DNA of 64,000 nt from an uncultured Chlamydiae bacterium (GTDB taxonomy: Bacteria; Chlamydiota; Chlamydiia; Chlamydiales; Parachlamydiaceae): positions 3,040,001 through 3,104,000 of the forward strand of contig CAVWGN010000001.1 of the NCBI GenBank assembly GCA_963754655.1, written 5' to 3'. The position numbers and the translations under genes were made by a program. Of this stretch, positions 58,787-60,614 are shown piece after piece. Within the stretch, counting starts at the first letter, position 1. Every line of letters begins with the position of its first letter. The notes beneath the pieces were generated by a model. The model was not told the origin of the DNA and did no database searches. It saw only the letters and a program-made list of their open reading frames with translations.

Positions 58787-60614
58787 GCTAAGAGAGGAGC
58801 TAAGGCTAAGCGACGCCTTTAGTCGTCGCTGCCGCGGCGCTTCGCTCTTAACTTAACCATAAGAGGTGTGAAAGTGTCCCAATACGCAAAAATTATAGAG
58901 AAGGGCGTCGAATCAATAGAATGGAGGTCCCCCTCCGGGGAACAATTAGATTTCTCGTGAACCCACAGCTGCGCTTGCGCTTAGGCTGTGGGCTACAAAA
59001 AGAATAGCGCCAAGCGCTAAATTTAAGCCTAAAAACACTGTGCATGATCACTAAAGTTCTGCAAATTTCAATCTCCCAATTGCACAATCACATGTAAGGT
59101 CGCTCGAAAGGCAATCATTAATTTTTCTTATGAGAAGAAAAAAAGATCAACATTGTTTAAGATCATATTGGGATCAAATGAGATAATTCCAAATTTGCAT
59201 AACTTTAGTGATCCTTTCACCTTACGCAAGCGAGGTCAAAGAATCAGTGCTATCCCTTAAATAACCAAATAGCTTGATTTGTTTAATAGCCTGAAAGGCT
59301 TCAAAGAAAATAGCCCAGGGCATCGCCCTGGGGCAGATTGATCCTCTACATGTAGTCTGAAGGACTACAAGAGAATCATCTATCCCCAACATGTTTTCAT
59401 CAAACTTAATTTCATATTTTTTAGAAATTCGCAGTACTCTTTGAAATGTCATTGTTTATGGGTTCTTTTTGACTCCCTTTTTGTTCGTTACCTTGTACTT
59501 TGCCATTGAGTAAGCTGATTAAGGAGGTTAAGCAAGGATCTAACTGGATAAAAACAAATGGGGAATCGAGTTTGATGAAAACATGTTTGGGATAGATGAT
59601 TCTCTTGTAGTCCTTCAGACTACATGAAGAGGACCAATCTAACCCAGGGCTAGGATGTTCATTTTGTGCAAAAAATGAGCTTTATTTTTCACAATAATTG
59701 GCATAGTTGAATTGAAGGTCGCATGTTTATGCCGTCCTTTCAGGACTCGATGTCTTTTTGATAGAAACCCAGGCCTCCGCTTCGCTGCGACCTGGGCTGT
59801 AACATGACGGCCCTTCAGGCCTTAACAAGAGATGTTTAAGTCTCTCTTCTATAATCCCTAAATCATCTTTTTGTTAAGGCCTGAAGGGCCGGCCCTTCAG
59901 GCCTTAACAAGAGATGTTTAAGTCCCTCTTCTATAGTCCCTAAACCATCTTTTTGTTAAGGCCTGAAGGGCCGTCATGTTACAGCCCAGGTCGCAGCGAA
60001 GCGGAGGCCTGGGTTTCTATCAAAAAGACATCGAGTCCTGAAAGGACGGCATAAACATGCGACCTTCTATTCAACTATGCCAATTATTGTGAAAAATAAA
60101 GCTCATTTTTTGCACAAAATAAACACCCTAGCCCAGGGCCGGGACTTAACAAAGAACTGTTTTTGGGCTTGATATTCGTCGAGTCAATTTAACAACACAC
60201 CGCCTTTAACAGGCTGTAGAGGCATATTTTCCGAAAATGACGCGAAAAACATCAAGCCCAAAACAGTTCTTTGTTAAGTCCCGGCCCTGGGCTATTTTCT
60301 TTGAAGCCTTTCAGGCTATTAAATAAATCATGCTATTTGGTTATTTAAGGGATCTCATTGCTTTTTTAACCTCGCTTGCGTAAGGTGACTGATCCTGTAA
60401 ATGCTTTTAGGCTTAAATTTAGCGCTTTGCGCTATTCTTTTGTAGCCCACAGCCTAAGCGCAAGCGCAGCTGTGGGTTCACGAGAAATCCGGATTGTTCC
60501 CCGGAGGGGGGCATCGGTGCTATTGATTTGACGCCCTTCTCTATAATTTTTGCGTATTGGGGACAGTCTTACACCTCTTATGGTTAAGTTAAGACCTGCT
60601 CTTCCTCTCTTAGC
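58787..60614. mobile_element. Giant nested palindromic locus 4 (about 1.83 kb): elements F, H, G/REP-B, A and D
   Basis: Inverted pairs at 58787-59034/60405-60614, 59046-59068/59191-59213, 59217-59321/60284-60388 and ~59325-59406/59569-59650; self-palindromic inserts at 59651-60130 and 60140-60283. Confidence 0.9.
59381..59595. pseudogene. Scrambled remnants of an IS200/RAYT-type Y1 (HUH) transposase
   Basis: Plus strand 59479-59562 reads FCSLPCTLPLSKLIKEVKQGSNWIKTNG. Minus strand 59474-59381, allowing several frameshifts, reads SQKExHKxMTFQxEYCEFLKKYEIKFDExHV. Confidence 0.7.

What the first reader, a model, noticed from the sequence alone, without database searches (positions are those of the whole stretch)
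59381..59595. Y1/RAYT-type transposase fossils at the core of the palindrome, fused to REP-B
Seen: the loop between the inverted REP-B arms encodes a post-HUH-like segment on the plus strand (FCSLPCTLPLSKLIKEVKQGSNWIKTNG). On both strands a frameshifted C-terminus (I(K/E)FDExHV(W/G)D) runs directly into the REP-B sequence GATGATTCTCTTGTAG. Known from recall: Y1_Tnp proteins of the REP-associated group read roughly HVHILCxLxxTxxLSKLVEEVKxxSSKWIK and end NQxEHHxxxTFQEEYxxFLxxYxIxxDERYVWD. Inference: REP-B is the 3' flank of this transposase, and the palindrome arose by fold-back duplication of the gene's 3' end. That would be a snapshot of a REPIN forming and would name the likely mobiliser.
Basis: partly seen in the sequence, partly recalled or inferred. 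Interest (0 to 1): 0.8.

Follow-up and report, generated by a model that had tools for sequence, protein, structure and literature searches.

The report
Transposase fossils inside a hairpin repeat
The palindrome is made of two broken tail pieces of a small single-strand-DNA transposase gene that still lies intact elsewhere in this genome, which shows that this repeat family descends from that gene's hairpin ends; this copy and most others were likely spread by unrelated cut-and-paste transposons rather than by that enzyme.

Summary
The fossils are real. Window 59382-59593 holds decayed pieces (81-86% nucleotide identity) of a 150-aa Y1/HUH transposase with two intact copies in the same genome, and REP-B is that gene's right-hand three-hairpin end. 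The enzyme is TnpA-Y1 subclass 1.2 (YxxxQxxHH), not a RAYT. The palindrome is probably not a one-molecule fold-back. One arm carries a ~157-nt deletion shared with three unfused copies; the other holds the sequence that deletion removed. They join at a 3-nt microhomology, and the same junction occurs at three loci. The genome holds 29 broken copies: a decay series from gene to gene-less doublet. The mobiliser claim is weak. The window copy sits in a 1174-bp shell with IS701-type ends and a 7-bp target duplication, confirmed by an empty paralogous site. 66 of 115 REP-B cores follow a CTAG/TA, IS630-type cap. Most REP-B doublets here face the opposite way. The scan already linked subclass 1.2 to Acido-Lenti-1-like hairpins on other DNA and in this genome. 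New here: the coding fossils, the fusion series and the IS701-type carrier. No activity of any enzyme is shown.

The parts
59382..59475 (-). Fossil 1: codons 117-150 of the subclass-1.2 tnpA, frameshifted; begins just after the catalytic Tyr115
   Evidence: 81.3% nt identity to gene positions 351-516 incl. flank, E 1.4e-33; alignment
59473..59475 (.). Fusion junction: 3-nt microhomology between gene nt 167-169 and the reverse complement of nt 351-353; same junction at C1:167.1 kb and C1:413.1 kb
59476..59562 (+). Fossil 2a: codons 57-87 (starts at the second His of HUH)
   Evidence: 75% aa identity, E 2.8e-7; 85.9% nt, E 3.5e-22
59563..59593 (+). Fossil 2b: codons 140-150, joined to 2a by a ~157-nt internal deletion that also stands in unfused copies at C1:428.5, 453.1 and 1469.5 kb
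   Evidence: alignment; junction
59288..59381 (-). Right terminal repeat of the element, complete: inner hairpin H3 59352-59368 (REP-B core), H2 59314-59332, outer H1 59288-59300
   Evidence: matches the 3' flank of the intact genes; Acido-Lenti-1 21.1 bits on 59288-59332, below the cut-off of 37
59594..59650 (+). Right terminal repeat, second copy, inner part: H3 59607-59623 and first half of H2, then interrupted by later insertions
59653..60128 (.). Later insertion into H2: TA-flanked palindrome carrying the hairpin ends of a sister subclass-1.2 gene (C1:395.7-396.2 kb); Acido-Lenti-1 36.4 bits at 59768-59822 and 59959-60013
60140..60283 (.). Second later insertion (module M9, about 80 copies in the genome); origin not determined
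60285..60317 (+). Outer part (rest of H2, and H1 60305-60317) of the second terminal repeat
59216..59287 (-). Left end of the carrier shell (module M3); its terminus matches the end of an IS701-family element in a relative
60318..60389 (+). Right end of the carrier shell (module M3)
59209..59215 (+). Target-site duplication, left copy (TGATCCT)
   Evidence: empty paralogous site at C1 ~90.0 kb holds one 7-mer
60390..60396 (+). Target-site duplication, right copy (TGATCCT)
58846..60594 (.). Older outer palindrome (arms 58846-59037 and 60402-60594, centre 59046-59213) into which the shell inserted

Best explanation
The palindrome consists of two decayed 3' ends of a subclass-1.2 Y1 (HUH) transposase element, likely joined back to back from two different broken copies, and it likely reached this site as cargo of an IS701-type miniature transposon rather than by the Y1 enzyme. 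Shown: the parent is a 150-aa gene between inverted three-hairpin ends (two intact copies, C1:2542103-2542555 and 2544233-2544685). Shown: 29 broken copies exist, including left-right internal deletions and right-right fusions. Shown: the window's plus arm shares a ~157-nt deletion with three unfused copies, while the minus arm holds codons 117-139, which that deletion removed. Inferred: a microhomology-mediated deletion or template switch between two oppositely oriented copies made the fusion once, and it was then copied to three loci. Shown: the window unit 59216-60389 is bounded by inverted ends and a 7-bp duplication of a site that is single in a paralogue. Inferred: an IS701-family DDE transposase, now present only as remnants, inserted it. 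Inferred: most other REP-B copies spread inside CTAG/TA-bounded IS630-type shells after a single capture at the last two codons. Further loss of the central coding remnant would give the short-loop, gene-less doublets seen in relatives. So the Y1 element is the source of the repeat, and DDE systems are its main visible carriers here.
For: Parent and flank identity. Subclass: motifs against Table 1 of PMC6006769; NCBIfam; nearest solved relatives are IS608 TnpA, E 1e-4. Decay series: 34 of 113 match clusters hold >=20 nt of coding sequence, namely 2 intact parents, 3 sister genes and 29 broken copies. Order of events: the three fused copies group with the unfused deleted copy at 1469.5 kb (94/92), apart from the intact genes and the deleted copies at 428/453 kb; the 1469.5 copy keeps sequence 5' of the fusion point. 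Carrier: 5 of 9 M3-bounded pairs have an exact 7-8 bp duplication; empty site. The same terminus abuts an IS701-family transposase end in G065 (NF049921, E 4.8e-14) and bounds a 165-bp element with a 7-bp duplication in G199. CAP: 66 of 115 REP-B cores; C at -1 in 198 of 250 pattern hits; CTA..TAG in 52 of 79 pairs; an IS630-family element whose ends begin with the same TAGTACT. End state: short-loop doublets with the inner hairpin inward in G053 and G323.
Against: The trees rest on about 110-140 columns. No branch of the mid-segment tree is starred, and the 3'-end tree partly scores the deletion junction itself. Both arms share a one-base loss near the stop, so they have a common pseudogene ancestor, and fold-back first cannot be excluded. 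Only the window copy keeps both IS701-type ends and a duplication; the other two fused copies keep one intact end. No intact IS701_2 transposase was found in the genome (best E 8e-19, under the cut-off). The IS630 copies are doubtful: one 354-aa frame lacks the ATG that the other copy has at that place, and the other copy's frame is interrupted. The IS630 match to CAP is only 7 terminal bases. The outer hairpin H1 abuts 13 different flank clusters, which fits independent Y1 insertions too. No strain pair or reads show any movement.
Confidence: 0.68

Rival explanations
1. First reader's model, amended. One undeleted pseudogene folded back through its paired ends and copied its own 3' end over its 5' part (template switch at the 3-nt microhomology). 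The deletion came later in one arm, and the unfused deleted copies are recombinants with whole genes.
For: Both arms share the same one-base loss and nearby changes. Left and right ends of the element are inverted repeats and can pair in single-stranded DNA. The window's two arms share a one-base loss at the stop codon that the other copies' deleted arms lack, which suggests arm-to-arm copying.
Against: It needs at least two back-recombination events to explain the unfused deleted copies at 428/453 kb and 1469.5 kb, which sit on both sides of the fused clade. Undeleted 3' ends with the same derived states exist unfused (1398.8, 1508.6 and 1852.0 kb).
Confidence: 0.22
2. The subclass-1.2 enzyme is the true mobiliser of the doublets, as RAYTs are proposed to be for REPINs, and the DDE-type ends are only neighbours or later insertions.
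For: HUH and Tyr/Gln motifs are intact in two genes. The hairpin architecture is conserved beside the gene in 49 of 69 loci from many phyla, against 0 of 60 far-flank controls. Conservation ends sharply at the foot of H1, with 13 flank clusters. G053 and G323 have dispersed doublets with no shell that I recognised.
Against: The window unit has a 7-bp duplication with an empty site, which IS200/IS605-type transposition does not make (PMC3119063). No conserved target tetranucleotide is visible at H1. The two largest H1 flank classes are fixed modules, not new sites. The intact genes form a tandem cluster with shared flanks. The models are not exclusive: Y1 may have placed the early copies.
Confidence: 0.2
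3. Assembly or amplification artefact (fold-back chimera).
For: Long palindromes are a known artefact class (own knowledge). The one public run found does not span the junction.
Against: Three loci share the junction at 81-87% identity with different neighbours. The arms differ by 11% and hold different gene parts. The unit has a target duplication and an empty paralogue.
Confidence: 0.02

Closest known systems
TnpA-Y1 subclass 1.2 (Quentin, Siguier, Chandler, Fichant 2018, PMC6006769)
   Same: DH[IV]H, WQ and YxxxQxxHH motifs, 150 aa, about 30-aa C-terminal tail
   Different: Described there as without REPs or typical terminal structures, low copy, mostly Cyanobacteria/Bacteroidetes. Here it has inverted three-hairpin ends, over 100 dispersed end copies and a decay series; homologues occur in 28 of 60 relatives searched and in Verrucomicrobia, Planctomycetes and Acidobacteria.
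REPIN-RAYT systems (Bertels & Rainey 2011, PMC3116915; bioRxiv 10.1101/2021.07.10.451892)
   Same: An inverted doublet of hairpin ends around a spacer. The papers propose that REPINs arose by fusion of palindromes flanking an IS200-like element, which is the kind of event seen here.
   Different: The enzyme is not a RAYT, is not single-copy and leaves many broken copies. The doublet still holds coding remnants, has 3 copies only and sits in a shell with a target duplication.
PATEs of Haloquadratum (Dyall-Smith et al. 2011, PMC3119063)
   Same: Gene-less derivatives of IS200/IS605-type elements made by core deletion. [quoted passage not shown] Their palindromes are targeted by MITEs and small repeats.
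   Different: PATEs have no terminal inverted repeats and cause no target duplications. In the passages read, the other elements land inside them; capture of their ends as cargo between DDE ends is not described. Here both ends are the same (right) end, back to back.
TIRtrons/TIRYTs (Di Nocera et al. 2013, PMC3733652)
   Same: Y1 genes between terminal inverted repeats, some doubly palindromic, with repeats dispersed as dimers
   Different: PMC6006769 assigns the 26 TIRYTs to subclasses 2.1, 2.2 and 2.5, none to 1.2. I did not read the alignment supplement, so overlap of its Acidobacteria group with this family is open.
Acido-Lenti-1 RNA motif (Rfam RF01687; Weinberg et al. 2010, PMC2864571)
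   Same: The H2-spacer-H1 layout. Matches over the cut-off lie on both sides of subclass-1.2 genes in L032, L055 and L057, and in an inverted pair just downstream in L072; 148 of 150 scored candidates match in this genome.
   Different: Listed as an RNA of unknown function. The REP-B version itself scores only 21.1 bits (cut-off 37).
MITEs of IS701 and IS630 families
   Same: Inverted ends without a transposase; 7-8 bp duplication (M3) or TA at CTAG (CAP)
   Different: The cargo is the hairpin end of an unrelated HUH element. No intact IS701-type partner was found in the genome.

Membership tests
TnpA-Y1 subclass 1.2 | Y motif YxxxQxxHH | tested here: met
   YIQNQKEHH in P0001 and P0002; 76 of 80 homologues. 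The fossil keeps only the part after the Tyr.
TnpA-Y1 subclass 1.2 | HuH DH[IV]H and WQ motif | tested here: met
   DHVH in P0002, NHVH in P0001; WQ at 95-96
TnpA-Y1 subclass 1.2 | About 148 aa with a ~30-aa C-terminal tail | tested here: met
   150 aa; PF01797 covers residues 7-119
TnpA-Y1 subclass 1.2 | No REP and generally no terminal secondary structure (descriptive trait in the paper) | tested here: not met
   Inverted repeat >=30 nt in 49 of 69 loci, control 0 of 60. The trait appears wrong for much of the family rather than for this member; membership is filed on the protein motifs.
TnpA-Y1 subclass 1.2 | Assignment by the authors' clustering/HMMs | not testable with these tools
   Their profiles are not held
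RAYT / TnpA-REP (class 2) | Y motif YxxxNP | tested here: not met
RAYT / TnpA-REP (class 2) | NCBIfam REP_Tyr_transpos cut-off | tested here: not met
   21.1 bits against 80
RAYT / TnpA-REP (class 2) | Single copy, no self-duplication | tested here: not met
   Two copies at 98% aa identity and 29 broken ones
RAYT / TnpA-REP (class 2) | GTAG at the foot of the hairpin | tested here: inconclusive
   H3 starts with GTAG and ends with CTAC here, but GTAG is part of the stem and close relatives have GCAG
REPIN | Two inverted hairpin repeats around a spacer | tested here: met
REPIN | Cognate RAYT | tested here: not met
   The cognate gene is subclass 1.2
REPIN | The doublet is the unit moved by the Y1 enzyme | not testable with these tools
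   No close strains or raw reads; the window copy has a DDE-type duplication
PATE | No terminal inverted repeats, no target duplication | tested here: not met
PATE | Derived from a Y1 element by loss of the gene | tested here: met
IS701-type MITE (carrier 59216-60389) | Terminal inverted repeats related to an IS end | tested here: met
   19 of 20 terminal bases complementary; same terminus at an IS701-family gene end in G065
IS701-type MITE (carrier 59216-60389) | Target-site duplication | tested here: met
   7 bp, with empty paralogue; 5 of 9 pairs. I did not verify the published duplication length for this IS701 group.
IS701-type MITE (carrier 59216-60389) | Cognate transposase in the genome | tested here: not met
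   Remnants only
Acido-Lenti-1 (RF01687) | Gathering score 37 bits | tested here: not met
   REP-B H2-H1 21.1 bits; the neighbouring sister-family ends 36.4; 11 matches in the genome pass

The most novel reading that the evidence does not exclude
This genome records a second, independent birth of a REPIN-like system from a non-RAYT enzyme, in every stage. The subclass-1.2 transposase nicks its three-hairpin ends, makes and places end-to-end doublets itself, and the doublets shed their coding loop. They are then taken over by unrelated IS630- and IS701-type transposases, a relay in which HUH-type hairpin ends change mobiliser and expand to several percent of the genome.
Probability: 0.25. Interest if true: 0.72.

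Novelty: new variant of a known kind. Interest (0 to 1): 0.48.

Why it matters
The origin of REP/REPIN-type repeats from transposon ends is a stated hypothesis; the passages read show no intermediates for it. Here the repeat still carries the last codons of its parent gene, the parent is intact in the same genome, and the deletion stages between them can be lined up, so the descent is read directly. It also supplies named substrates (H1, H2, H3, the fused doublet) and an intact enzyme for a first biochemical test of subclass 1.2, which was described as lacking such ends. And it warns that the gene from which a repeat descends need not be what spreads it: target duplications point to DDE transposases. 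The weight is limited. Decay of Y1 elements into gene-less palindromes with C-terminal remnants is already described for PATEs, and this scan had already tied subclass 1.2 to these hairpins.

Tried and rejected
RAYT membership: rejected. Direct Pfam/NCBIfam detection of the 31-aa fossil: no hit; the minus-strand fossil is not above shuffles with a non-self profile. Search for an autonomous partner of the M3 ends: the long frames inside M3 pairs look, by my recall and without a family scan, like other IS types, with 390-505-aa copies also found outside the shells; only remnants of IS701_2 were found. The plasmid record fetched for its ends added nothing. M3 terminus in the order: 6 of 300 other genomes matched at 2 mismatches, some by chance within coding frames. 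The fused element in relatives: 6 of 60 matched, none across the fusion junction; the two longest matches are the 3' ends of their own gene copies. No close strain was available for filled/empty comparison. Sequencing runs: one soil-metagenome run with 0.09 of the words, no RNA holder listed. Its contigs show the same modules and one 35-nt-loop REP-B joint at depth 2 with a 24-nt side, too weak to count; no contig spans the junction. The idea that doublets are right-left junctions of excised circles was considered. In G323 and G053 the doublets have the inner hairpin inward, and in this genome both arms are right-type, so I dropped it. A conserved target tetranucleotide at H1 was looked for and not seen. 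The Rfam miRNA hits are far below their cut-offs and reflect long hairpins. The tree of undeleted 3' ends was unresolved. No structure or complex prediction was run.

Full report
Observation. The window is C1:3040001-3104000 of a 3.16-Mb, 38.8% GC assembly. Earlier scan notes call it a chlamydia-like organism; I did not test that label.

Parent gene. PF01797 finds 11 matches in the genome, 9 over the cut-off and 7 near full length. Two, at C1:2542103-2542555 and 2544233-2544685, encode 150-aa proteins 98% identical to each other; a third copy stops at 69 aa. Each intact gene ends in W-D-stop followed at once by the REP-B core and has an inverted copy of that core before its ATG. The window matches this gene in three pieces (junctions): codons 117-150 plus right flank on the minus strand, codons 57-87 on the plus strand, and codons 140-150 plus right flank on the plus strand. 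The fossil lacks the first His and the catalytic Tyr. Against this, the window piece is not found by PF01797 at E<=0.1 nor by Pfam or NCBIfam alone. With a profile of 91 non-self homologues only the plus piece beats 200 shuffles (12.0 bits against a best of 6.7; minus piece 5.0).

Family. The motif YIQNQKEHH, DHVH/NHVH, WQ and the length fit subclass 1.2 of PMC6006769 (abstract, section 12 and part 1 of section 15 read), which lists it as having no REP. NCBIfam gives IS200 63.8 bits (cut-off 55) and REP_Tyr_transpos 21.1 (cut-off 80). The four solved relatives are IS608 TnpA and similar. So it is not a RAYT. Homologues occur in 28 of 60 relatives; 14 of the 28 non-self loci show an inverted repeat of 60 nt or more across the gene. 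Among the best 80 of 591 loci from other phyla, 76 have YxxxQxxHH. Of the 69 with full flanks, 49 have an inverted repeat of at least 30 nt, against 0 of 60 far-flank controls and 5 of 69 cross-locus pairs. The unit is three hairpins: inner H3, middle H2, outer H1. Rfam Acido-Lenti-1 matches H2-H1 in 3 of 20 loci at E<=0.001 and in 6 of 20 loci at E<=0.01, 3 of them over the cut-off (20 of the 80 loci were given). In this genome 148 of 150 scored candidates match (1077 candidates in all), 11 over the cut-off. The REP-B version itself scores 21.1 bits, and the parent locus L005 had no hit. A 2026 preprint still calls the motif of unknown function (10.64898/2026.10.21.760802, one passage), and the original seed rows have the same layout (PMC2864571, passages and supplement passages). 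I reached this link, which showed that the scan had noted it several times on other DNA, which showed it for this genome.

Decay series. Of 113 clusters matching the element, 34 hold at least 20 nt of coding sequence: 2 intact parents, 3 sister genes and 29 broken copies. They include left-right internal deletions (C1:428.5, 452.4-453.2, 1398.6 and 1508.6 kb), lone ends, and five right-right doublets (166.8, 412.4, 1898.1 and 2096.0 kb and the window). Three of the five share the window's junction at 81-87% identity in different surroundings. The other two have shorter loops; whether they derive from the same fusion cannot be told.

How the palindrome arose. The plus arm carries a ~157-nt deletion (codons 88-139) that also stands in unfused copies at 428.5, 453.1 and 1469.5 kb. 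The minus arm contains codons 117-139, so it cannot have been copied from a deleted molecule. In a tree of gene positions 151-270, the three fused copies group with the unfused 1469.5-kb copy (94/92), apart from the intact genes and the 428/453 pair (8 rows; 5 shorter matches were left out). That copy keeps sequence 5' of the fusion point. The simplest order is deletion first, then fusion with an undeleted 3' end at a 3-nt microhomology (inference). The evidence is thin: the alignments are short, no branch is starred, the second tree is partly circular and the third unresolved. Both arms share a one-base loss, so a fold-back on their common pseudogene ancestor remains possible. Within this reading I put about 65-70% on two templates.

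What moved it. The fossil palindrome lies inside 59216-60389, which has inverted ends (19 of 20 bases) and TGATCCT on both sides. A paralogue of the surrounding older palindrome at C1 ~90.0 kb reads through with one such 7-mer (one base different) and no insert. Of 9 pairs of these ends, 5 have an exact 7-8 bp duplication. The same terminus follows the 3' end of an IS701-family transposase in G065 (E 4.8e-14) and bounds a 165-bp element with a 7-bp duplication in G199. The own genome has only remnants of that family, and the other two fused copies keep one intact end only. Of 115 REP-B core matches, 66 follow the CAP module, 25 keep a coding tail, 16 are left ends and 8 are other. CAP ends have C at -1 in 198 of 250 hits and CTA..TAG in 52 of 79 pairs (the 79 include some false pairings). 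An IS630-family element with ends that begin with the same seven bases is present in two copies, neither clearly whole. That IS630 duplicates TA is my own knowledge. That IS200/IS605-type elements cause no duplication is stated in PMC3119063 (passages). These shells hold REP-B with the gene-side end outward (at least 22 loci), the opposite of the window's doublet (5 loci). The mapped modules cover 103 kb, 3.3% of the assembly. For Y1 activity there is only indirect support: intact motifs, conserved hairpins, a sharp boundary at H1 with 13 flank clusters but no shared target word, and dispersed short-loop doublets in G053 and G323 with the inner hairpin inward and no coding remnant.

Comparison with print. 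Bertels and Rainey propose that flanking palindromes of an IS200-like element fused to form REPINs (10.1101/2021.07.10.451892 and PMC3116915, passages); the passages read show no intermediates. PATEs are gene-less Y1 derivatives, one with a C-terminal coding remnant, and are targets of MITEs (PMC3119063, passages). TIRtrons are Y1 genes between inverted repeats (PMC3733652, passages; its alignment supplement was not read). Of PMC5581495 I read only part 2 of 6 and take nothing from it. Searches (listings) turned up no paper that ties subclass 1.2 to hairpin repeats, to Acido-Lenti-1, or to capture by DDE shells; subscription journals and unread supplements are not covered. A look-up of the window stretch among earlier findings returned nothing.

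Verdict. A real fossil, with the right parent and flank, the wrong family label, a doubtful fold-back and the wrong or unproven mobiliser. It works like a REPIN/MITE precursor but is not a member of the REPIN-RAYT family. New variant of a known kind; interest 0.48.

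Noticed in passing
G000 C1 395753-396241, 2429356-2429802, 2802162-2802605, 2939306-2939755: Four more full-length subclass-1.2-like genes (39-49% identity to the parent), each with its own hairpin flank. The 395.7-kb gene's 3' flank is module M7 (320 copies) and the 2429-kb gene's flank resembles module M1.
   Followed up: partly
G000 C1 452539-452855: A ~317-bp palindrome with its own inverted ends and a ~10-bp flanking direct repeat is inserted near the start of a broken parent copy; it carries yet another hairpin doublet. 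The same ends recur at C1 ~1250 and ~1968 kb.
   Followed up: no
window 59643-59650 and 60285-60292; genome-wide: Nearly all module junctions (M6, M9, M1) fall in hairpin H2 at its CCC(A/T)GGG arms, a hot spot for insertion or exchange whose cause is unexplained.
   Followed up: partly
G000 C1 69852-72309, 263232-265435, 1781316-1784082, 1830006-1832099, 1896484-1904417: M3-bounded shells that contain whole transposase-like frames of several kinds (390-505 aa); insertion sequences appear to target these palindromes.
   Followed up: partly
G000 C1 830795-830868: One CAP-REP-B copy keeps a longer junction that shows a TTGG microhomology between the CAP element and the last codons of the gene, suggesting a single capture event.
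   Followed up: partly
G323 C1 5430203-5431220 (L107, L192): In Pirellulaceae SH449 the subclass-1.2 gene lies between two ~200-bp doublets, and the upstream one is preceded by a copy of the gene's last ~40 nt (92%): another coding remnant attached to a doublet.
   Followed up: partly
L023 (G053), L029, L036, L045, L050: Inverted repeats around the gene run 190-240 bp, well beyond the outer hairpin into otherwise ordinary-looking sequence.
   Followed up: no
G000 C2 2678-2750, 23706-24919: The 35-kb second contig also carries a coding tail with REP-B and two CAP-bounded arrays.
   Followed up: no
window 60965-62908 (+): 647-aa frame with a signal-like start and seven ~50-aa repeats (SVAFSPEVSGNLFAAV), beta-propeller-like by my recall, followed by Ig-like repeats; a decayed copy of the repeat lies upstream at 60768-60870.
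   Followed up: no
window 57628-58764 (+) and 53722-56352 (+): A 378-aa coiled-coil protein with a C-terminal HPD (J-domain-like) motif, and a KdpD-like sensor kinase (labels recalled, not scanned).
   Followed up: no
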